Program-made: the position numbers and the translations under genes
Origin: an uncultured Gemmatimonadaceae bacterium
GTDB lineage: Bacteria; Gemmatimonadota; Gemmatimonadetes; Gemmatimonadales; Gemmatimonadaceae
Direction of reading: 5' to 3'
DNA length: 64,000 nucleotides
Assembly (NCBI GenBank): GCA_963751275.1
Contig: CAVVTZ010000009.1
Span: 64,001 to 128,000 of the forward strand
Notes under the pieces: model-generated
The model's database searches: none
What the model saw: the letters and a program-made list of their open reading frames with translations, nothing else
Told to the model about the DNA's origin: nothing
Shown here: positions 33,387 through 49,913 of the stretch, one piece after another
Position numbering within the stretch: position 1 is the first letter of the stretch
How the letters are laid out: the number at the start of each line of letters is the position of its first letter

Positions 33387-33720
33387 GTGAGTGGTGACCC
33401 GAACTCCGTACGTCGTACCCCAAACGCCGTGAGGCGTGAGGCGTGCGTCGAACAGATTGAACGGCGTGATGCGAGACCCGAACGCCGTGAGTCGCGACCC
33501 GAACCACGTGATTCGTACCCCGAACTCCGCGAGTGCACTCACGACTGACGGACCACGGGGCGCGACGCACGGAGTTCGGGGGTCGTCTCACGGCGTTCGG
33601 GTCTCGCCTCACGCCTCACAGTCCGTTCGACGCACGCCTCACGTCTCACGGCGTTCGGGTCTCGCCTCACGCCTCACGGCGTTCGGGGTACGACGCACGG
33701 AGTTCGGGTCGCCACTCTCG
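33387..33720. repeat. About 335-bp palindromic element (family F3)
   Basis: Repeats of CCCGAAC(T/G)CCGTG, GTGAGGCGTGAGGCGTGCGTCGAAC and their reverse complements; GAGTGCACTC near the centre. Confidence 0.85.
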
Positions 33721-34475: not shown

Positions 34476-34658
34476 CACGGCGTCCTTGGCACCCCGAAAT
34501 CCGTACTTGGTCCCCCGAACGCCGCGTGTAGCGTTGGCGTCTGGTCACGGCTGGGGCGTCCTTGGCATCGCCCGCACCCAGAACCGCCCGAGCCGTGACC
34601 ACACGCCAATGCTACACGCGGCGTTCGGGGGCCAAGTACGTGGTTCCGGGGTTCGCCA
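34476..34658. repeat. Palindromic element (family F3, short form)
   Basis: 34503-34552 and 34591-34639 near-perfect inverted repeats containing CCCCCGAACGCCGC. Confidence 0.8.
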
Positions 34659-42805: not shown

Positions 42806-44359
42806 CTAGAGCCCAGAGAGCAGCGCGTCGTTATTCGTCGTCGCCCCGATCCGCTTGATCAACCACTCCATCGCCGCCTGCGGCGGCATCTGCCCCAGCC
42901 CGCGGCGCAATGTATACACCGCCTCGATCTGGTCCGCCTTGAACAATTTCTCTTCCTTCCGCGTGCCCGACGTCGCGATATCGATCGCCGGATAGATCCG
43001 CTTCTCCGCAAGCGAGCGGTCGAGCTTGATCTCGCAATTGCCCGTTCCCTTGAACTCCTCGAAGATCACGTCGTCCATCCGCGAGCCCGTCTCCACGAGC
43101 GCGGTGGCGATGATCGTCAATGATCCGCCGCCGTTCTCGGGGGCGACGCAGCGCGCCGAACCGAAGAACGCCTTGGGTTTCGCCATCGCGGTCGCATCCA
43201 ATCCGCCGCTCAGCGTGCGTCCCGTGCCGCGCTCCACGGAATTGTACGCGCGCGCCATGCGGGTGAGCGAATCGAGCACGATCACGACATCCCGCCCGCT
43301 CTCCACCAGGCGCCGCGCGCGCTCGAGCACCATCTCGGTGACCTCGGTGTGCCGCTCCGCGGGCTGGTCGAAGCTCGACGCGATCACTTCGCCGCGTCCC
43401 CACGAGATCATTTCGCTCACTTCTTCGGGCCGCTCATCGACGAGCAGCACGAGCAGCGCCGCCTCGGGGTGATTGAGCGCCACGCCCTCCGTGATCGCCT
43501 GCAGCAGCATCGTCTTGCCGGCGCGCGCGGGCGCCACGATCAGCGCGCGCTGGCCGTAGCCAATGGGCGCGATGAGATCGATCGCGCGGCGCGTGAGCTC
43601 CGGTCCCCCCTTCGCGGGGCGGCCCGTCTCGAGGGTCAGTTTGCGGTCGGGATACGAGGCGATGAGCGCGGTGAAATCGGTGCGCTTGAGCGCGAGCGCC
43701 GGATCGGCCTCGTTGATCGTGAGGATCTCAGCGACGACGGTACGGCCCCGATGATCGTGCCCCGTGCTCGCTTCCACCAGATCGCCGCGGCGCAGCGCGA
43801 ACTGCCGCACCAAGTGCAGCGGGACGAACGCGTCGGCCGGCGTCGGGAGGTAACTCTCGGCGGCGCGGCGAATGTACCCGCCGTCGCGGCCCGCATCGAA
43901 CCATCCGAGCGTGGCGCCATCCGGGACGATCGGCACCGGCGGGCCGGAAGGCACGTGCTGCTGTTGCTGATTCTGATTCTGCTGATGATCCGGGCGGGGT
44001 CCGCCGCGTCCGCGGCCGCGCCGCCCGCGGCGGCCATTGTTCCGCTGTTCATTGTGCTGCTGCGGCCGGTGCTGGTGCCGCGGATTCTGATTCCCGCCGC
44101 TGTTCATCTCGCCGGCGCCGCTCCCGCCTCCGCCGCTTCCGCTGTCCGAAGGCATCGCCCCCTCGCCGCCGCCCGTCGCATCGGAAGCGCCTTGCTCCGT
44201 CCCGACGCTGAATGAGCCGCCGCCGCTCTCGCCGGAGGACGTAGGCTGGTCGTCGCGATAGGGACTCGATTCCATGTTCGGATCACGGTTGGGGTCACGG
44301 TTCGGGCGGTGCGGTCTATTCCCGCGACCGCGCCGGGGCGGACGTCTGCGTTCGTTCAT
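42806..44359 (-). CDS. rho: Transcription termination factor Rho with disordered N-terminal region
   Basis: IDLIAPIGYGQR, APARAGKT, LVDERPEEV, LDSLTRMARAYN, GRTLSGG, IFEEFKGTGN, PAIDIATSGTRKEE. Confidence 0.95.
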   Translation of the reverse strand: MNERRRPPRRGRGNRPHRPNRDPNRDPNMESSPYRDDQPTSSGESGGGSFSVGTEQGASDATGGGEGAMPSDSGSGGGGSGAGEMNSGGNQNPRHQHRPQQHNEQRNNGRRGRRGRGRGGPRPDHQQNQNQQQQHVPSGPPVPIVPDGATLGWFDAGRDGGYIRRAAESYLPTPADAFVPLHLVRQFALRRGDLVEASTGHDHRGRTVVAEILTINEADPALALKRTDFTALIASYPDRKLTLETGRPAKGGPELTRRAIDLIAPIGYGQRALIVAPARAGKTMLLQAITEGVALNHPEAALLVLLVDERPEEVSEMISWGRGEVIASSFDQPAERHTEVTEMVLERARRLVESGRDVVIVLDSLTRMARAYNSVERGTGRTLSGGLDATAMAKPKAFFGSARCVAPENGGGSLTIIATALVETGSRMDDVIFEEFKGTGNCEIKLDRSLAEKRIYPAIDIATSGTRKEEKLFKADQIEAVYTLRRGLGQMPPQAAMEWLIKRIGATTNNDALLSGL

Positions 44360-44728
44360 GCGGTGTGGCGTGATGGAAGGTGTGCGTCGCGCAGCGCCGC
44401 GCCGTCCCGATTGGACGGATGCCGGCCGCGCCTCGTGCTTCAATGTGTTGCTGCGATATGGTGCACTCTCTAGGAACAACGGGCCCGCGGGGCGCGGACA
44501 CTGCACGCGCGATCCGGGTTGCGACCAGCCATGATGCGTTGCGCGGCGCGAACGACGCGACCGCCAAACGGCACCGCCTGGGCCCTGCGATCTGACTTGG
44601 GATGGCCGACGGTCACCCGCTCCGCGGCCCCCTCAATTCTCGCCAATCCACCGCGATTCCGCAACACCCACCCTGACTACAGACCTGCCCGAACAAGCGC
44701 CGCGGTCGATCCTACAGACCGGCAGTAG

Positions 44729-44918
44729 CACCCCGAACTCCGTCCTTCGTCCCCCGAACTCCGCCATTGGCGATTGACGTGTGGTACCAGCTACGGCGTT
44801 GCTGGCATGGTGTAAACGCCATGCCAAGTACGTTTGAGCCGTTGCCACACCTTAGTGGCCAATAGCGGAGTTCGGGGGCCAACAACGTTGTTCGGGGTTC
44901 GACTAACGTTGTTCGGAC
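44729..44918. repeat. Palindromic element (family F3, short form)
   Basis: CCCCCGAACTCCGCCATTGGC ... GCCAATAGCGGAGTTCGGGGG; 21-nt period like 34491-34526. Confidence 0.8.
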
Positions 44919-44926
44919 CGCGCCCG

Positions 44927-45187
44927 CTACCTCTTATTCTTCTCCGCCACGGAGCGCTCAAGATCTCGCACCAGCGCAATGATCCGGCGCACGATGTCGA
45001 TCATGCGGTCCACCGCCGCGCCCTGCTCGGGGCCCAGCCCCGGCTCGGTGCGCAACAGCTGCGCCTCGGCGAGGAGCGCGGCCAACGGATTGTTGAGTTG
45101 ATGCTGCACGAGCGCCGTCAGCCGTTGCAATTCCGGCGACGAGAGCGGCTCCTGCTCTTTGGACGATGACTCTTTCGGCGGCGTCAC
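44927..45187 (-). CDS. Stand-alone HisKA/DHp domain protein (86 aa)
   Basis: H-box VQHQLNNPLAALLAEAQLL and a second helix, no ATPase domain; GGAGG SD before GTG. Confidence 0.7.
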   Translation of the reverse strand: MTPPKESSSKEQEPLSSPELQRLTALVQHQLNNPLAALLAEAQLLRTEPGLGPEQGAAVDRMIDIVRRIIALVRDLERSVAEKNKR

Positions 45188-45232
45188 GCGCGGTGCCTCC
45201 CCTCGGGTCTCTACTATATCTTCAGGACACTC

Positions 45233-45832
45233 ATGGGTTCCCCTAAGATACCGGGTGGCACCGCCGCCGAGCTCGCGAGCGCCGTGGAGAGCTATCGCGA
45301 GACGAACGATTTCTCCGTGCTCCTCGACCGGCTGCTCGCCATCTCGGTGGCCGCCGATCTCGAAGAACTGATCGCCGCCGTCGAGCCATACCGGACGATC
45401 CCGGAGATCGCCGGCCCGGTGTACGAGCGCGTGGTGGCGGAGCGTCCGCACGATGCCCGCGCGCTCGTGACGCTCGCCAACTCGTACTGGCTGAGCGGCC
45501 GCGGCGCCGAGGCCACCGGCGAACTCGCGCAGCGCGCGATGGCCGCCGACCCGGAGAATCGTGCGGCGTGGCATCTCTGGGCGCTCACCGAACCCGAGCC
45601 GCGCGCGCGCATGACGCGATGGAAGCAGGTGAGCGAGCGCTTTCCGGCCGACGACCTCGCGCGCGCGACGCTCGCCGACGCCGCCGCGAGCGTGGCCGGC
45701 GCCGAGCGGGACCGCGAGGCGCTGCAGCTGGCGATCCGGAGCTACGACGCACTGCTCAAGACGGCGGCTCTCCCGGAGCAGAAGGCCGCCCTTGAGAGTG
45801 CGCTAACTACGTTGCGCGCCTGGAATCTCTGA
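45233..45832 (+). CDS. Hypothetical all-helical (TPR-like) protein
   Basis: YERVVAERPHDARALVTLANSYWLSGR and AQRAMAADPENRAAW TPR-like pattern. Confidence 0.6.
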   Translation: MGSPKIPGGTAAELASAVESYRETNDFSVLLDRLLAISVAADLEELIAAVEPYRTIPEIAGPVYERVVAERPHDARALVTLANSYWLSGRGAEATGELAQRAMAADPENRAAWHLWALTEPEPRARMTRWKQVSERFPADDLARATLADAAASVAGAERDREALQLAIRSYDALLKTAALPEQKAALESALTTLRAWNL

Positions 45833-45884
45833 ACCGCAGTCCTAGACGCTAGACGCTACACGCTGTGACGCGGGATTCCGACCT

Positions 45885-46709
45885 TCAATGGAAATGAAAC
45901 ATGAACGGCATCTCCACCCATTGTGCCACCGGGCAACCGTTGGACATTGCCGGCGTCCACCGGTACTGCGCGACCGCGGCGATCACGGCGTCAACGTATT
46001 CCTTGTGCTTCCCTTCCACGGCGCGCACGCTGTCCATCACGGGGCGGCCATCGCGGCCCACCAGCACCTGCACGATCACGTCGTCCTCGACGCGCGCGTC
46101 CTCCAGCTTCTTCGGCCACTTCGGGTAGATGTTCGTGGGGATGAGGTGCGCGGAGCGGTCGATCGTGTTGAGCGGCCGCAGCGCCATCAGTTTCTGCGGA
46201 TAGAATCCGAGCGACGGATCGAGCGACAGCTGGATGCGCATCTGCAGGGTGTCGCGGCCGTCGGTGGAGAAGAAGCTCACCTTGTCGACGCCCATTTGTT
46301 CCGCGGCGTTGATCAGCGCCGAATCCATGCGCGCGTCGGCGGTGGTGAGTTTGAGATGGATCTTGTCCACGCGGCCGTCCGCGCTCTGCGTGAAGCGCAC
46401 TTGGCCCAGCATCGGCATGAACGTGTTCGCGCCGCTCGCGCGCAGCTTCACCATCGTCGCCGCGGCCGCCTGCATGGAACTGAGATCCATCGGCTGGATG
46501 AACCGCGCGACGTACTCCTGCAGCAGCGACCCTCGCAGCCGCCGCAGCTCCGCGCTCTCGGAACTATCCTGCGGTATCGAAGCGAACACGGTGAGGATCG
46601 GGCTGATCCCGTGTGAAGCGGGATCCGTGGCGCACTGCGCGCCCGGCGACTGCGCGGGAACGGAGACCAGAAGGCAGCTGAGAATCTGGACTCGCGCCGC
46701 CATTCTCAT
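45885..46709 (-). CDS. Secreted TonB C-terminal domain protein
   Basis: YPKWPKKLEDARVEDDVIVQVLVGRDG...YRWTPAMSNGCPVAQWVEMPFMF. Confidence 0.75.
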   Translation of the reverse strand: MRMAARVQILSCLLVSVPAQSPGAQCATDPASHGISPILTVFASIPQDSSESAELRRLRGSLLQEYVARFIQPMDLSSMQAAAATMVKLRASGANTFMPMLGQVRFTQSADGRVDKIHLKLTTADARMDSALINAAEQMGVDKVSFFSTDGRDTLQMRIQLSLDPSLGFYPQKLMALRPLNTIDRSAHLIPTNIYPKWPKKLEDARVEDDVIVQVLVGRDGRPVMDSVRAVEGKHKEYVDAVIAAVAQYRWTPAMSNGCPVAQWVEMPFMFHFH

Positions 46710-46765
46710 TCGCACCCTCCGAACCGTTGGCGACAGCCGTCAGCCGTCAGTCTGCCGTTAGGCTC

Positions 46766-47167
46766 TTAGGCTCTCGCTCCCTTCTTCTTCCCCGCGAGCC
46801 CCGTCAGCACTCCCAACAGCTCCGTCAGATCGAACGGCTTCGCGATCACCGGGCATCCGCACGCGTCGATCAGGTCCATCGCGTGATCGCTCGAGTCGCC
46901 GGTGGTGAACACGGTGCACGCGCGCAGCTGCGGCTGCAGGCTCGCCGCCAGCTCGAAGAGCACGTCGCCGCGCATGTCCGGCACCCGCAGGTCCACCACC
47001 ATGAAGTCGAAGTGTTCGGTGCGCAACAGGGCGAGCGCCACCTCGCCGCTTTCGACGGCCCGCACGTCGTATCCGTTCCGCGTGAACGCGATGGTCAATG
47101 CGCGGCAGATGGACGGTTCATCGTCCACCACGAGGATCCGCGCATGCTCATTGAACAGCCTCATCAT
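46766..47167 (-). CDS. Single-domain response regulator (CheY/Spo0F-like)
   Basis: ILVVDDE, VVDLRVPDMRG, VFTTG, IAKPF. Confidence 0.9.
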   Translation of the reverse strand: MMRLFNEHARILVVDDEPSICRALTIAFTRNGYDVRAVESGEVALALLRTEHFDFMVVDLRVPDMRGDVLFELAASLQPQLRACTVFTTGDSSDHAMDLIDACGCPVIAKPFDLTELLGVLTGLAGKKKGARA

Positions 47168-47948
47168 CCCTCTCTCCCTGACGGCGCATCATCGCCGTTA
47201 ACACTTCCATGAACCGCTCGGGCGGCAACCGCTCCCGAAGGGTCGACGGGGAAAGTCCCGTCGTCGCCCGCACCTGCCGCGAGAAGACCCGCGGCGAGGC
47301 GTACCCCAGCTTCTTCGTGATGTCCTCCAGCAGGTACCCTTTCTCTCCCAGATAGTGGTACGCCTGCGCGAGCCGCGCGGTGAAGATCAGCACTCTCGCC
47401 GAGGCGAGTCCCCGCTTCACCAGCCACCGGTCCAAGTTGCGGCGCGTCATGCCCGCGGCGTGCGCGAGCGATTCGACGCCCTGGATCAGGTGCGGCGCTT
47501 CGTACATCCGCGCGAGCGCCCGTTGCAGCAGCGGCATCGCGCCTTCCAACCGGTCGTTGATCGACGCCAGCGCCGCTCCGCCAAGCCGGTGCGCCGGCAG
47601 CCGCTCGAGCATCTCCTTCAAGCGGCGCGGTTCATCGTCGAAGCCGCGCAACACCACGTGCCGCACGCCGCGCTGCGCGAGCGATACGGTGGTCCTCAAC
47701 GTCTCCGCCGCGAGCGAGGTGTAGACCACCACCGGCAGCGTCGGATACCGCTCCATCAATTCGAACACCGGCTCGATCTCGGTGCTGCCATCGACCCGCG
47801 GGTCGATCACGAGCACATCGACGGGTTGCTTCCGCACGACGGAGATGAGTTCGGTCCAGCCGGTGACACCGGTCAGACCGTGCTCATCGCCCAGCACGCG
47901 GCGCAAATAGGCGAGGACGGGAGGAGGGAGGCGGGCGGCGACTTCCAA
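47148..47948 (-). CDS. AraC-family regulator with degenerate receiver-like N-terminus
   Basis: LAHAAGMTRRNLDR and LEDITKKLGYASPRVFSRQVRATTGLSP HTH pair; N-terminal VDVLVIDP...PVVVYT. Confidence 0.82.
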   Translation of the reverse strand: MEVAARLPPPVLAYLRRVLGDEHGLTGVTGWTELISVVRKQPVDVLVIDPRVDGSTEIEPVFELMERYPTLPVVVYTSLAAETLRTTVSLAQRGVRHVVLRGFDDEPRRLKEMLERLPAHRLGGAALASINDRLEGAMPLLQRALARMYEAPHLIQGVESLAHAAGMTRRNLDRWLVKRGLASARVLIFTARLAQAYHYLGEKGYLLEDITKKLGYASPRVFSRQVRATTGLSPSTLRERLPPERFMEVLTAMMRRQGERDDEAVQ

Positions 47949-48074
47949 GGGGGGACACTAAGGTTGTCCTAAAAACGCACCTTACTGTCCGAAAATGCTC
48001 GTCTGCCCCGAAGAACGCTACGGTAGCTTTGCCTGCGAGTGGAACCGCCGTCCCAACTCCCACGCGAGGCTACC

Positions 48075-48206
48075 ATGATCCGTCGCCTGTTCGCCCTACT
48101 CGTTCTCGTCGCCGCCGCCTCTGCCGCCACGGCGTGCACTTCGCCCACCGCCCCGAAGGCCGACTGCGCCGTCACCGGCGGCAGCGGGAACTGCGCCAGC
48201 CGCTAG
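48075..48206 (+). CDS. 43-aa secreted/lipo-peptide
   Basis: MIRRLFALLVLVAAASAATACTSPTAPKADCAVTGGSGNCASR*; GAGG SD; n/h-region and lipobox-like ATAC; followed by a strong hairpin. Confidence 0.75.
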   Translation: MIRRLFALLVLVAAASAATACTSPTAPKADCAVTGGSGNCASR

Positions 48207-48226
48207 TTCGCGGCTGACTTTCACGC

Positions 48227-48260
48227 CGAAGGGCCGCGGGCGCCAACCCGCGGCCCTTCG
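48227..48260. terminator. GC-rich hairpin between convergent peptide and TPR genes
   Basis: CGAAGGGCCGCGGG-CGCCAA-CCCGCGGCCCTTCG, 14-bp perfect stem; no strong U-tract. Confidence 0.7.
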
Positions 48261-48267
48261 TGCATCG

Positions 48268-49509
48268 CTACACCTTGATGCCGGCGAGCTCGCGGATCTT
48301 CCGCACGCCCGCCGCCGCTTCTTCCACCATCGGCGTCGTCGCGGCCGGAACGGCCCCCTCGATGGCGATGCCGTCCTTCAAGTCTCCCAGCGCCTGCTCC
48401 GCGTGGAAGACCACCTGGCTCGATTGATGCTGGTGCGCGATCTCGAGCGCGCGCTCCAGTGCCACGCGCGCCTGCTCCGGCCGGTCGAACATCCGGAAGC
48501 CCTGCCCTGAATAGAAGAAGTACCAGGCCGAGAGCACCGGAGGCAGCGCGGCCGTGGAGAGCTCGCGGCGATACTGCTCGAACACCGGCTCGAAGTGATC
48601 CGCGCCGGCGAGCTCCATGAGGTTGATCGTCGCCTGCCAGCGCGTGAACTGCTCCTGCGCCGTGGCCGCGAGCACGAGGTTCGCGTCGCGCGCCGCGGTG
48701 TGCAGCCCGATCTCGAAGAAGCTGGCGGCGAGGTCGGCGAGCACTCGGTCGCGCGAATTGTCGGTGCGCACATCCTGCAGCGCGAGATACTGCATGGCGA
48801 TCGCCGCATCGTAGTCGCCGCGGCGGTGCGCGGTGTGCGCGCGGTCCTGCAGCGCCATCGCGCGGAGCTCCGTCATCCCGAGCTGCTCGGCGTCCAGGAT
48901 CGTCTGGTCGAGGATCGATTCCGCCTCAGGCAGATTGCCACGATCGGTGAGCACGTTCGCCTCGCCGATGCGCGCCTTGAGCATGCTCATGATGTCGCCC
49001 GTGAGCGCGGCGACTTCGCCGGCGCTGCCATACGCGTCCCACGCGTCGTCCCAGCGCGCGAGCGTGCGCGAGCAGGCGGCGATCATGAGGTTCGCGTTGA
49101 TCACGGTGTCCGCGTCGTTGAGCGGGTGGGCGTGCGCGAGCACCGTGCGGTACACATCGGTCGCGAGCGCCCATTCGCCATCCAGCTGCAGCGCGCGCGC
49201 GTACGCCATGAGGCGCGGCGTGACGAAGCGGACACTCGCGAAGGCGCCGGAGGGATCCATCGCCTCGAGGACCTTCAAGAGGAGCGCGCGGCTCGTGCTC
49301 CCATGGTCCATCGCTTCGACCGCTTCGCGCACCGCGCGCATCCCCCACGCATCGGGCGCCGCGACGTGCGGCCCTTCCATGACCCAGGCATCGACGAGTC
49401 GCAGCGTGACGAGTCCCGCGCTCATCGCGCGGAAGGTGGGGCTGCCCGCTTCGAGGTGGGAGATGCGCTCGAAGTACGGGAGATGAGAGAGCGAGGGGCC
49501 GGTGGTCAT
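48268..49509 (-). CDS. Cytoplasmic all-helical TPR protein (413 aa)
   Basis: About 40-residue helical repeats (YARALQLDGEWALATDVY, IAACSRTLARWDDAWDAY, EANVLTDRGNLPEAESIL, RAHTAHRRGDYDAAIAMQ); no signal peptide or HTH seen. Confidence 0.8.
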   Translation of the reverse strand: MTTGPSLSHLPYFERISHLEAGSPTFRAMSAGLVTLRLVDAWVMEGPHVAAPDAWGMRAVREAVEAMDHGSTSRALLLKVLEAMDPSGAFASVRFVTPRLMAYARALQLDGEWALATDVYRTVLAHAHPLNDADTVINANLMIAACSRTLARWDDAWDAYGSAGEVAALTGDIMSMLKARIGEANVLTDRGNLPEAESILDQTILDAEQLGMTELRAMALQDRAHTAHRRGDYDAAIAMQYLALQDVRTDNSRDRVLADLAASFFEIGLHTAARDANLVLAATAQEQFTRWQATINLMELAGADHFEPVFEQYRRELSTAALPPVLSAWYFFYSGQGFRMFDRPEQARVALERALEIAHQHQSSQVVFHAEQALGDLKDGIAIEGAVPAATTPMVEEAAAGVRKIRELAGIKV

Positions 49510-49602
49510 GGCGCGCAAGTTCAGTCCGCGCGAAATGGGCTTCAAGCGTGAATCAGGACAATCAGCGGACGAATTAGGACATTCTTAACTGCCGAACTGC
49601 GA

Positions 49603-49905
49603 CAGTGGCCACCCGAACGCCGTCATTGGTCACCCGAACGCCATGAGGCGTGAGGCGTGCGTCGAACTGACTGTGAGGCGTGACACGAAGCCCGAAGGCC
49701 GTGAGGCGAACCCCGAATCACGTACGTGGCGCCCCAAACTCCGTACGTCGTGAGTGTACTCACGGACTTCGGGGTGCGAGTCACGGCCTTCGGGTCGCGA
49801 CTCGCGGAGTTAGGGATTCGAGTCACGCCCCACAATCAGTTCGGCGCACGCCTCACGCCTCACGGCGTTCGGGGTACCAATGACGGAGTTTGGGTCGCTA
49901 CTCTC
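49603..49905. repeat. About 300-bp palindromic element (family F3)
   Basis: Shares TGAGGCGTGAGGCGTGCGTCGAAC with 33387-33720; centre GTGAGTGTACTCAC. Confidence 0.85.
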
Positions 49906-49913
49906 GCCCCTTC

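What the first reader, a model, noticed from the sequence alone, without database searches (positions are those of the whole stretch)
44927..49509. Candidate Rap-Phr/RRNPP-like peptide-signalling module in a probable diderm: secreted peptide + TPR protein + AraC + lone receiver + lone HisKA
Seen in sequence: a 43-aa exported peptide gene (48075-48206) converges on a 413-aa cytoplasmic protein made of an N-terminal helical region and about 40-aa TPR-like repeats with no HTH (48268-49509), and the two share one hairpin. The peptide gene is divergent from an operon of a pseudo-receiver-AraC regulator overlapping a single-domain response regulator. A TonB-C protein, a small TPR protein and a stand-alone HisKA follow. 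F3 palindromes (44729, 49603) bound the whole block. Established: Bacillus Rap proteins (helical bundle + TPR, about 380 aa) bind peptides from adjacent phr genes and act on response regulators such as Spo0F/ComA; RRNPP systems are known mainly from Firmicutes. Inference: this may be an analogous peptide-TPR-regulator circuit that I do not know to be described.
Basis: partly seen in the sequence, partly recalled or inferred. Interest (0 to 1): 0.85.

Follow-up and report, generated by a model that had tools for sequence, protein, structure and literature searches.

The report
Lipopeptide-controlled gene switch in Gemmatimonadota
Soil bacteria with two membranes carry a conserved three-gene unit (a tiny exported lipoprotein, a repeat-helix protein and the DNA-binding regulator that it is predicted to grip) that looks like a version of the peptide signalling so far described in Gram-positive bacteria.

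Summary
The genes are real, but the module is smaller than proposed. The core is TPR protein >< 43-aa peptide | pseudo-receiver AraC. The peptide is a lipoprotein precursor (lipobox Cys21, two-Cys loop), not a Phr-type one. It lies in the cassette at 130 of 136 assessable TPR loci; AraC at 121 of 130, the receiver at 90 of 116. TonB-C, small TPR, HisKA and the palindromes are local neighbours only. A 21-bp-period direct repeat abuts the -35 of the peptide and TPR promoters. Its variable bases track AraC recognition-helix residues (not significant once kinship is allowed for). A complex model docks the TPR N-terminal helices on the AraC pseudo-receiver (ipSAE 0.71, best control 0.00; mark reached by 116/157 solved and 2/215 mismatched pairs), away from the TPR repeats. 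Distant peptides end in 2-5 tandem 7-mers. Best reading (0.55): AraC induces the peptide, and the processed, imported tail relieves TPR inhibition of AraC. Peptide-TPR binding and import are untested. It works like anti-activator Rap-Phr, without detectable RRNPP homology. Seven literature searches found no description. This scan noted the cassette earlier in at least 8 other genomes.

The parts
48268..49509 (-). CORE: 413-aa TPR protein with no signal peptide; N-terminal helices (res. 10-83) predicted to bind AraC; about seven 40-aa TPR-like repeats (res. 97-378) forming the presumed peptide groove
48075..48206 (+). CORE: 43-aa lipoprotein precursor; lipobox Cys21, TSPTAP linker, C-terminal Cys31-Cys40 loop (presumed disulfide, presumed mature signal)
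47148..47948 (-). CORE: 266-aa pseudo-receiver/AraC-family regulator (Asp48 kept, beta1 acidic pair and Lys absent); HTH1 recognition helix 168-177
47965..47995 (+). CORE: operator, direct repeat TGTCCTAAAA-N11-TGTCCGAAAA, followed by -35-like 48002-48007 and -10-like TAGCTT 48024-48029 of the peptide promoter; also lies 17-47 nt upstream of the araC start
49551..49581 (-). CORE: second operator TGTCCTAATT-N11-TGTCCTGATT, followed by -35-like TTGAAG (49545-49540) of the TPR promoter
48224..48262 (.). GC-rich hairpin between the convergent peptide and TPR genes; probable shared terminator, no U-tract
46766..47167 (-). ACCESSORY: canonical single-domain receiver overlapping the end of araC; present at 90 of 116 loci
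45885..46715 (-). NOT CORE: TonB-C domain protein, found only in the three closest of 80 loci
45233..45832 (+). NOT CORE: 199-aa small TPR-like protein; syntenic at the main locus of this family only
44927..45187 (-). NOT CORE: DHp-only (HisKA) protein, His kept, no ATPase domain; start inferred at GTG 45187 (86 aa)
44724..44921 (.). NOT PART: genome-wide 21-nt-unit palindromic repeat (left copy)
49591..49910 (.). NOT PART: same repeat (right copy)

Best explanation
A three-gene peptide-controlled switch. (1) The AraC-type regulator binds tandem 21-bp-period sites abutting the -35 and activates the peptide gene, in this family also the TPR gene, and in some genomes a few unlinked genes, several for exported proteins. 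Sites shown; binding inferred. (2) The TPR protein binds the alpha4-beta5-alpha5 face of the AraC pseudo-receiver with its N-terminal helices (predicted). It most likely holds AraC inactive; I put inhibitor against co-activator at about 65:35 (inferred). (3) The 43-aa precursor is exported and lipidated at Cys21 (lipobox shown; processing inferred). Its variable tail, here a disulfide loop, is clipped off, taken back into the cytoplasm by a peptide ABC importer and bound in the TPR groove, which frees AraC (all inferred). This gives positive feedback through the peptide and negative feedback through TPR: a density- or neighbour-sensing switch. The receiver gene is an optional add-on.
For: Linkage: peptide at 130 of 136 loci, AraC at 121 of 130, against a background of 0.004 per window. 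The triad is kept in second copies and in a rearranged locus, L149. 94 of 97 genomes of the two main families with a cassette-type AraC (E<=1e-58) have a TPR match (hand count). Real exported product: tails hold two further Cys in 92 of 130 and none in 38, never one or three; L154, L156, L157, L158 and L029 end in 2-5 tandem 7-mers, as some Phr/AimP/NprX precursors do (PMC9765709 section 7). Operator: a matrix trained on peptide promoters scores >=14 bits in 35 of 69 TPR promoters at gap 11 and 23 of 69 at gap 12, and in 0 of 69 opposite strands, 0 of 345 shuffles and 0 of 258 other upstream regions. It scores >=17 bits in 19 of 19 second-family peptide promoters not used in training. The top two sites in G000 are these two promoters. 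The exact pattern gives 45 sites in 25 of 61 genomes, reversed control 0. Operator base 5 co-varies best with AraC residue 172, base 3 with 167/169, among all variable TPR and AraC columns; these lie in or just before the recognition helix. Complex: ipSAE 0.71, best of 3 controls 0.00; mark reached by 116 of 157 solved and 2 of 215 mismatched pairs; runs agree in >=85% of contacts, partner pLDDT >=79; interface TPR 5-63 with AraC 78-111. G000 encodes Lgt, LspA-like pieces and one SBP_bac_5 peptide-binding protein.
Against: The processed tail must cross the inner membrane, and between cells also an outer membrane; no protease or transporter gene was seen linked in the core. Tail similarity follows TPR better than AraC (partial r 0.29 vs 0.02), but so does the signal-peptide control (0.39 vs 0.10), and no groove helix stands out. 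The operator/helix co-variation rests on only 1-3 independent tree pairs: never opposite, but p 0.25-1. TPR promoters lack the site in 19 of 19 second-family loci. Six of 136 TPR loci have no peptide (L028, L141, L163, L169-L171), and some genomes have a strong TPR match without a cassette-type AraC (e.g. G055, G168, G270). In G000 (83% complete) no target outside the cassette was found. Asp48 is kept in 104 of 105 AraC rows, so a phosphoryl or ligand input is not excluded. The complex score was calibrated on other alignments, and receiver complexes can pass by likeness to solved structures.
Confidence: 0.55

Rival explanations
1. Same three parts, but self-sensing rather than cell-to-cell. 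The lipoprotein is a probe of the cell's own export, lipidation, disulfide formation or periplasmic proteolysis; unexported precursor, the signal-peptide fragment or the locally clipped tail reaches TPR in the same cell.
For: A lipid anchor retains the peptide in the producer's envelope. The lipobox is kept everywhere. In G000 the regulon seems limited to the cassette. It needs no passage across the outer membrane.
Against: The tails are lineage-specific (127 distinct precursors of 130) and sometimes tandemly amplified, which fits a specific message better than a general stress probe. Unlinked operator sites precede varied genes (amine oxidase, RHS, protease-like, peroxidase) rather than a constant set of envelope-repair genes.
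Confidence: 0.2
2. The lipopeptide is an output, not the signal: a small surface lipoprotein (adhesion, kin marker or membrane-active peptide) switched on by AraC, while TPR senses some other ligand and controls AraC.
For: Its promoter has the strongest operator (36 bits). No tail-groove co-variation was detected. TPR folds match LGN and MalT domain III as well as Rap (Z 23.3, 20.6, 21.4), so the ligand need not be this peptide.
Against: The peptide also stays convergent with TPR where AraC is not beside it (L153, L162, L164) or lies on the other side (L152). Identical 7-mer repeats suit processing into several copies of one signal.
Confidence: 0.15
3. A Spo0F/Spo0B/Rap/Phr-like phosphorelay: TPR dephosphorylates the lone receiver, and HisKA relays phosphate to AraC Asp48.
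For: The receiver is canonical (84 of 95 loci keep acidic pair, Asp and KPF), HisKA keeps its His and lacks an ATPase domain, and Asp48 is kept in 104 of 105.
Against: The receiver is missing at 26 of 116 loci. This HisKA is in 43 of 56 covered first-family loci but 0 of 19 second-family loci, like the unrelated neighbour Rho. AraC lacks the acidic pair and Lys. The model puts TPR on the alpha4-beta5-alpha5 face of AraC, not at Asp48. TPR-receiver binding was not tested.
Confidence: 0.06
4. Inherited synteny of unrelated genes.
For: In the first family the whole region from the deacetylase to Rho is syntenic.
Against: The triad alone persists in the second family, in second copies and after rearrangement. 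It shares an operator and passes the complex test.
Confidence: 0.04

Closest known systems
Rap-Phr, anti-activator branch (RapF/RapC on ComA; RappLS20 on Rco), RRNPP/RRNPPA family
   Same: HTH-less TPR protein of 250-500 aa next to a small Sec-exported precursor, the five-point signature of PMC10075063 at its 'relaxed' level. N-terminal helices engage a regulator. Fold matches Rap phi105 Z 21.4 (rmsd 5.3, 299 aligned), RappLS20 Z 20.8, RapH Z 19.8. Tandem mature units in some precursors (PMC9765709 section 7). That ComA induces rap-phr pairs is recalled.
   Different: Diderm phylum. Convergent, separately promoted genes; PMC9765709 places Bacillales pheromone genes immediately downstream of the receptor gene. 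Lipobox is the rule here against 211 of 2,734 predicted SPII precursors in RRNPPA (section 9). Disulfide loop in 92 of 130. No RRNPP-specific Pfam match. The target is a pseudo-receiver AraC encoded in the cassette, bound on alpha4-beta5-alpha5; RapF binds the ComA DNA-binding domain (title of 3ulq).
NprR-NprX, PlcR-PapR, Rgg-SHP, AimR-AimP
   Same: Cytoplasmic TPR receptor plus adjacent peptide; autoinduction of the peptide gene (recalled). NprR Z 19.9, AimR Z 17.1.
   Different: These carry their own HTH; here the DNA-binding function is a separate AraC protein.
Enterococcal sex pheromones cut from lipoprotein signal peptides (cCF10/PrgX; recalled)
   Same: Lipoprotein precursor as source of a peptide signal.
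   Different: Here the gene is a dedicated 38-88-aa ORF and the variable, repeated part is the C-terminal tail, not the signal sequence.
AraC/XylS activators with tandem direct-repeat sites (XylS, AraC I1-I2, MarA contacts; recalled)
   Same: HTH_18 domain; 21-bp period; downstream half-site abutting -35; specificity residues in helix 168-177.
   Different: The N-terminal domain is a degenerate receiver, apparently controlled by a partner protein rather than a small molecule.
LGN/GPSM2 and MalT domain III TPR arrays
   Same: Best sequence-profile and fold matches; TPR_MalT in 17 of 44 homologues. LGN is solved with several bound partners (titles).
   Different: Only the repeat scaffold is shared; there is no evidence of shared function.

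Membership tests
RRNPP (PMC10075063 signature) | Propeptide of 10-100 aa | tested here: met
   43 aa here; 40-88 aa in 130 homologues, 38 aa in L210
RRNPP (PMC10075063 signature) | Sec export with SPI cleavage ('strict' level) | tested here: not met
   Lipobox Cys in 28 of the 28 peptides found by a filter that did not require Cys; my heuristic, SignalP not available
RRNPP (PMC10075063 signature) | Any Sec tag including LIPO/SPII ('relaxed' level) | tested here: met
   Basic N-region, hydrophobic stretch, lipobox; Lgt and LspA-like matches in G000
RRNPP (PMC10075063 signature) | Receptor of 250-500 aa with TPR profile match | tested here: met
   413 aa; TPR_12 39.3 bits, cut-off 30.1; 41 of 44 homologues
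RRNPP (PMC10075063 signature) | Receptor and propeptide genes are direct neighbours | tested here: met
   129 of 136 convergent neighbours, 1 more in a rearranged cassette
RRNPPA (by descent) | Sequence homology to Rap/NprR/PlcR/Rgg/PrgX/AimR receptors | tested here: not met
   None of the 20 Pfam families matched by 44 homologues at E<=0.01 is RRNPP-specific; none among the best 60 of 86 PDB profile hits (26 rows not shown)
RRNPPA (by descent) | Fold closer to RRNPPA than to other TPR arrays | tested here: inconclusive
   LGN Z 23.3, Pins 22.2, APPBP2 22.0, Rap phi105 21.4, RappLS20 20.8, MalT 20.6, NprR 19.9
RRNPPA (by descent) | Host in Firmicutes or their mobile elements | tested here: not met
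   Named relatives are Gemmatimonadaceae/Gemmatimonadales; of 80 record titles one says Actinomycetota and two name only 'bacterium'
RRNPP / Rap-Phr | Mature peptide is imported and binds the TPR groove | not testable with these tools
   The single complex job went to TPR-AraC; the tail/groove co-variation test was uninformative
Rap | No HTH; N-terminal helical bundle used for protein-protein contact with a regulator | tested here: met
   No HTH family; helices 24-45, 55-65, 72-83; predicted interface at residues 5-63. Prediction only
Rap | Phosphatase activity on a Spo0F-like receiver | not tested
   TPR-receiver complex not modelled; receiver absent at 26 of 116 loci
AraC/XylS | Double-HTH C-terminal domain | tested here: met
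   HTH_18 48.4 bits, cut-off 33.6; helices in the model
Canonical response regulator (the AraC N-terminal domain) | Acidic pair after beta1, phospho-Asp, Thr/Ser, Lys after beta5 | tested here: not met
   Asp48 104 of 105 and Thr76 88 of 105 kept; Pro at 7 in 78 of 105; no Lys among the common residues at 100-102
Spo0F/Spo0B phosphorelay | Receiver and phosphotransferase co-occur with the receptor | tested here: not met
   HisKA 43 of 56 in the first family, 0 of 19 in the second

The most novel reading that the evidence does not exclude
Gemmatimonadota evolved, independently of Firmicutes, an intracellular peptide quorum-sensing system. A membrane-tethered lipopeptide releases a disulfide-closed or tandem-repeated tail that crosses a diderm envelope and switches a TPR anti-activator off a pseudo-receiver AraC. 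Lineage-specific tails act as 'dialects', an operator code is set by one recognition-helix residue, and the regulon holds variable exported and competition genes.
Probability: 0.5. Interest if true: 0.92.

Novelty: new variant of a known kind. Interest (0 to 1): 0.8.

Why it matters
The RRNPP papers consulted (passages and sections listed in the full report) describe cytoplasmic TPR peptide receptors in Firmicutes and their mobile elements. A working equivalent in a widespread, hardly studied diderm soil phylum (profile match in 135 of 251 sampled genomes) would show that this signalling design arose or spread beyond monoderms. It would also show how a lipoprotein can serve as a pheromone precursor across two membranes. 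The system is small enough to rebuild in a laboratory strain: two proteins, a 31-bp operator and a 10-20-residue peptide, with over a hundred natural variants. The predicted interface and the residue-172/base-5 code give direct mutational tests.

Tried and rejected
Genome scan with the diverse alignment A2 could not be seeded; it was repeated with A1, which biases the 80 loci to the first family. No RNA holder was listed for the region; this is no evidence on expression. The consensus promoter/terminator scan found nothing at the cassette. NCBIfam gave no family over its cut-off for the TPR protein or the peptide. Atlas search: seven shown clusters at 0.97-0.99 were mostly Gemmatimonadota, one at 0.94 mostly Bacteroidota (not followed up); no structure search was possible. 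The representative search (826 proteins at E<=1e-30) carries no names or context, so the range outside the phylum is untested. The peptide-tail vs TPR-groove co-variation test was uninformative. The tree-aware test of operator vs AraC helix had too few independent pairs. Inter-protein mutual information: 1 of the top 30 pairs lies in the predicted interface; the 25 contact pairs average Z 0.57 (p 0.002 against random pairs), but this uses the alignment given to the model and ignores kinship, so I do not count it as independent. The TPR-peptide and TPR-receiver complexes were not modelled (one job only). Rejected: palindromes as boundaries; TonB-C, small TPR and HisKA as core parts; the 215-aa ATG reading of HisKA, which overlaps the small TPR gene antisense; a third operator in G000 (background level). 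Literature searches without a relevant hit.


Full report
1. Source and observation. The window is G000:C9:64001-128000, a 3.1-Mb, 83% complete, 68% GC assembly. Named homologues of the TPR protein are Gemmatimonadaceae/Gemmatimonadales. Pfam gives TPR_12 for the 413-aa protein and no family for the peptide. It gives HTH_18 plus a weak receiver for the 266-aa regulator, a receiver for the 133-aa protein, TonB_C, TPR_19 (just under cut-off) for the 199-aa protein, and HisKA. The peptide and TPR genes converge on a 16-bp GC hairpin without a U-tract. Each gene of the core is single-copy in G000, apart from a second pseudo-receiver AraC on contig C7 with no TPR or peptide beside it.

2. The peptide is a lipoprotein precursor. 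In the first 30 loci a filter asking only for a basic N-region and a hydrophobic stretch returned a convergent 40-66-aa ORF at 28 loci, all with a lipobox Cys (misses L028 and the weak hit L030). I then examined 143 loci: L001, L028, L029, L031-L110 and L112-L171. L002-L027 were left out as largely re-fetched, and L030 as a weak hit. Of the 136 with at least 450 nt beyond the TPR stop, 128 had the peptide by script. L150 was a script miss and L149 has it in a rearranged order peptide-AraC-TPR, which gives 130 of 136; L028, L141, L163 and L169-L171 have none. Background is 14 such ORFs in 1.04 Mb. Among the 130 peptides listed (127 distinct), the residue before Cys is Ala in 127. A T/S-A/G-P-type linker follows in 116, and the tail holds exactly two further Cys in 92 and none in 38. 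The even count argues for a real, exported, disulfide-closed product (inference). Five distant precursors end in tandem 7-mers (HTIGSGN x3 in L154, DFVNPNV x2 in L156, DFVNPHV x3 in L157, DYVNPLG x5 in L158, DFINPH[IV] x3 in L029). This points to the tail as the processed unit (inference); PMC9765709 section 7 reports up to six copies of a mature peptide in RRNPPA precursors.

3. What belongs to the module. AraC lies divergent from the peptide at 121 of 130 loci with enough flank; the receiver follows at 90 of 116. In the first family the order deacetylase-TPR><peptide|AraC-REC><small TPR|HisKA-Rho is syntenic. In 19 of 19 loci of a second family (7-kb flanks) TPR, peptide and AraC remain, REC in 17, and small TPR, this HisKA, Rho and the deacetylase in none. 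TonB-C occurs in 3 of 80 loci. HisKA is a true DHp-only protein with its His, in 43 of 56 covered first-family loci. The palindromes belong to a repeat with 91 loci in G000 and no hit in L031-L110. A TPR profile matches 135 of 251 phylum genomes at E<=1e-8 (43 of 52 and 72 of 113 in the two main families, 0 of 15 and 3 of 37 in two others; weak hits may be unrelated TPRs). By hand count, 94 of 97 genomes of the two main families with a cassette-type AraC (E<=1e-58) have a TPR match; two of the three misses have AraC at a contig edge. The reverse is looser: G055, G168 and G270 have strong TPR matches without such an AraC. These tallies include the unpublished genome G012, whose TPR is also one of 44 rows of alignment A2; no conclusion depends on it.

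4. A shared operator. A half-site matrix trained only on 73 peptide promoters (TGTCHYAAAA twice, 11-nt gap) scores >=14 bits in 35 of 69 TPR promoters at gap 11 and 23 of 69 at gap 12 (overlap not computed). It scores so in 0-5 of 69 at other gaps, 0 of 69 on the opposite strand, 0 of 345 shuffles, and 0 of 258 upstream regions of five neighbouring genes. It transfers to 19 of 19 second-family peptide promoters (>=17 bits) but to none of their TPR promoters. The downstream half-site is followed after 5-7 nt by a TTTACN/TTG-type -35; in peptide promoters a TA(C/G)CTT -10 follows 16 nt later. This is the geometry of AraC-family activators that overlap -35 (recalled). In G000 the two best sites are 47965-47995 and 49581-49551, and nothing else is above background. 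The exact pattern gives 45 sites in 25 of 61 family genomes and 0 for the reversed control; 29 are at the cassette and 16 elsewhere (and positions). I inspected 13 of the 16. They mostly use the genome's own variant and have TT at +6 to +8, by eye. The genes downstream include a copper amine oxidase, an RHS-repeat protein, a DyP peroxidase, an amidohydrolase, a Nal1_C-like protein, an OmpR-type regulator and several proteins with no Pfam match, some with signal-like N-termini (20 ORFs scanned).

5. Evidence that this AraC reads the operator. Across 95 of 105 paired loci, base 5 of both half-sites co-varies best with AraC residue 172, and base 3 with residues 167/169, ranked against all variable TPR and AraC columns. 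At the proximal half-site (92 loci) Asp goes with C/T in 26 of 26, Glu with G in 17 of 17, and Tyr with A in 31 of 40. Residues 169 and 172 lie in helix 168-177 of the model, and 167 just before it. That this is the base-reading helix of MarA-type proteins is recalled. On a TPR tree only 1-3 independent pairs exist; they never go the opposite way, but p is 0.25-1. So this is suggestive, not proven. The N-terminal domain has a receiver fold with Asp48 and Thr76 but without the acidic pair or the Lys.

6. TPR binds AraC in a model. The TPR model (pLDDT 93, pTM 0.86) has N-terminal helices followed by about seven repeats. Fold matches do not single out Rap (LGN Z 23.3, Rap phi105 21.4, RappLS20 20.8, MalT 20.6, NprR 19.9). 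No RRNPP-specific Pfam family matches 44 homologues, and the best 60 of 86 PDB profile hits include none. Cofolding TPR with AraC 1-256 (paired 105-row alignments) scored ipSAE 0.71 (runs 0.71, 0.73, 0.71) against 0.00 for the best of three controls. The mark was reached by 116 of 157 solved complexes and 2 of 215 mismatched pairs (counts hold only roughly with my own alignments). Runs agree in at least 85% of contacts, and partner pLDDT is at least 79. The interface joins TPR residues 5-63 to AraC residues 78-111, the alpha4-beta5-alpha5 face; the repeat region 97-378 is not among the confident contacts. The model supports binding but does not show it, and receiver complexes may pass by likeness to solved structures. 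That face is a usual dimer and output surface of receivers (recalled), and tandem operators suggest cooperative binding, so I favour inhibition (about 65:35).

7. Mechanism and odds. Shown in sequence: linkage, lipobox, Cys parity, repeats, operator and its position. Predicted: TPR-AraC contact. Inferred: AraC activation, lipidation, clipping, import (G000 has one SBP_bac_5 gene, Lgt and partial LspA matches), tail binding, and the direction of control. My odds for the steps: one functional module 0.93; AraC activates the peptide promoter 0.85; TPR binds AraC 0.8; the tail is the TPR ligand 0.6-0.7. Overall 0.55 for a peptide-relieved switch used between cells, 0.2 for self-sensing, 0.15 for the lipopeptide as output, 0.06 for a phosphorelay, 0.04 for chance. 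Results against the favoured reading: no tail/groove co-variation, six peptide-less TPR loci, no operator at second-family TPR promoters, no outside target in G000, and the unsolved route across the envelope.

8. Comparison and novelty. It meets the RRNPP_detector signature at the 'relaxed' level but not the strict SPI criterion (PMC10075063: 12 passages seen). PMC9765709 (passages and sections 7 and 9) reports 211 of 2,734 precursors as SPII, so a lipobox alone does not exclude kinship. The host phylum, gene orientation, lack of sequence homology and separate AraC do argue against filing it as a member. For PMC12700828 I saw the start of the abstract and two uninformative passages; the term 'Gemmatimonad' does not occur in it. 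No supplements were read; candidate tables there might list such pairs, although the passages seen describe Firmicutes and virus datasets. Searches (listings only) found no description of this cassette; the library lacks most subscription papers. Within this scan the cassette was noted before on other DNA (nine findings in at least 8 genomes; unchecked AI notes seen as short summaries, not counted as support). I saw them after the core analysis and before the complex result. Verdict: it works like an anti-activator Rap-Phr cassette, is not shown to be a member of RRNPPA, and is a new variant of a known kind; interest 0.8.

Noticed in passing
window 44724-44921 and 49591-49910; two more copies near 33389-33720 and 34489-34655: Palindromic repeat built of 21-nt units; 91 loci in G000, none in the 80 related loci. 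It looks like a lineage-specific REP/MITE-type element (label recalled).
   Followed up: partly
window 44927-45187 (-): Conserved DHp-only protein (H-x-x-N-N-P-L) with no ATPase domain, divergent from the small TPR gene and upstream of rho; 43 of 56 first-family loci. Possible phosphotransferase or kinase inhibitor of its own.
   Followed up: partly
G000:C7:595095-595844 (L111): Second pseudo-receiver AraC of the same broad family with no TPR or peptide beside it; this wider family is in all 52 and all 113 sampled genomes of the two main families. What controls these orphans is unexplained.
   Followed up: partly
L154, L156, L157, L158, L029: Precursors with 2-5 tandem 7-residue C-terminal units; the best candidates for defining the mature signal.
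   Followed up: partly
L203-L209, L211, L213-L217: Operator copies outside the cassette ahead of a copper amine oxidase operon, an RHS-repeat operon, a DyP peroxidase, an amidohydrolase, an OmpR-type regulator and unknown proteins: candidate lineage-specific regulon.
   Followed up: partly
L132, L133, L151: One genus uses a different operator variant (TGATAGGAAA at the peptide, TGA[CT]ACGAAA at the TPR) together with a different AraC helix (AIVSVYRN).
   Followed up: partly
L149, L152, L146, L140: Rearranged or doubled cassettes: peptide-AraC-TPR-AraC on one strand (L149), AraC upstream of TPR (L152), an extra AraC-TPR pair in tandem (L146), two AraC genes (L140).
   Followed up: partly
L028 (G055); G168, G270: Full-length TPR homologues without a cassette-type AraC in the genome, and in L028 without a peptide; possibly repurposed.
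   Followed up: no
window 42806-44506 (-): Rho with a long Gly/Gln/Arg-rich low-complexity N-terminal extension.
   Followed up: no
window 49510-49545: The TPR ATG lies 7 nt after a -10-like hexamer with no ribosome-binding motif between them, so the message may be leaderless in this genome (read).
   Followed up: no
G000:C7:910611-910790 and C5:76923-77299: LspA family matches are partial or in pieces; assembly errors or a broken copy were not distinguished.
   Followed up: no
L005/L033: TPR and AraC are frameshifted in this relative; assembly error or decay not distinguished.
   Followed up: no
L083: A record titled Actinomycetota carries a typical Gemmatimonadaceae locus with the full gene order; probably a binning error.
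   Followed up: no
rank 18: Atlas clusters of about 353 aa without a Pfam family, mostly Bacteroidota, score 0.94 to the TPR protein; whether they have adjacent lipopeptides was not checked.
   Followed up: no
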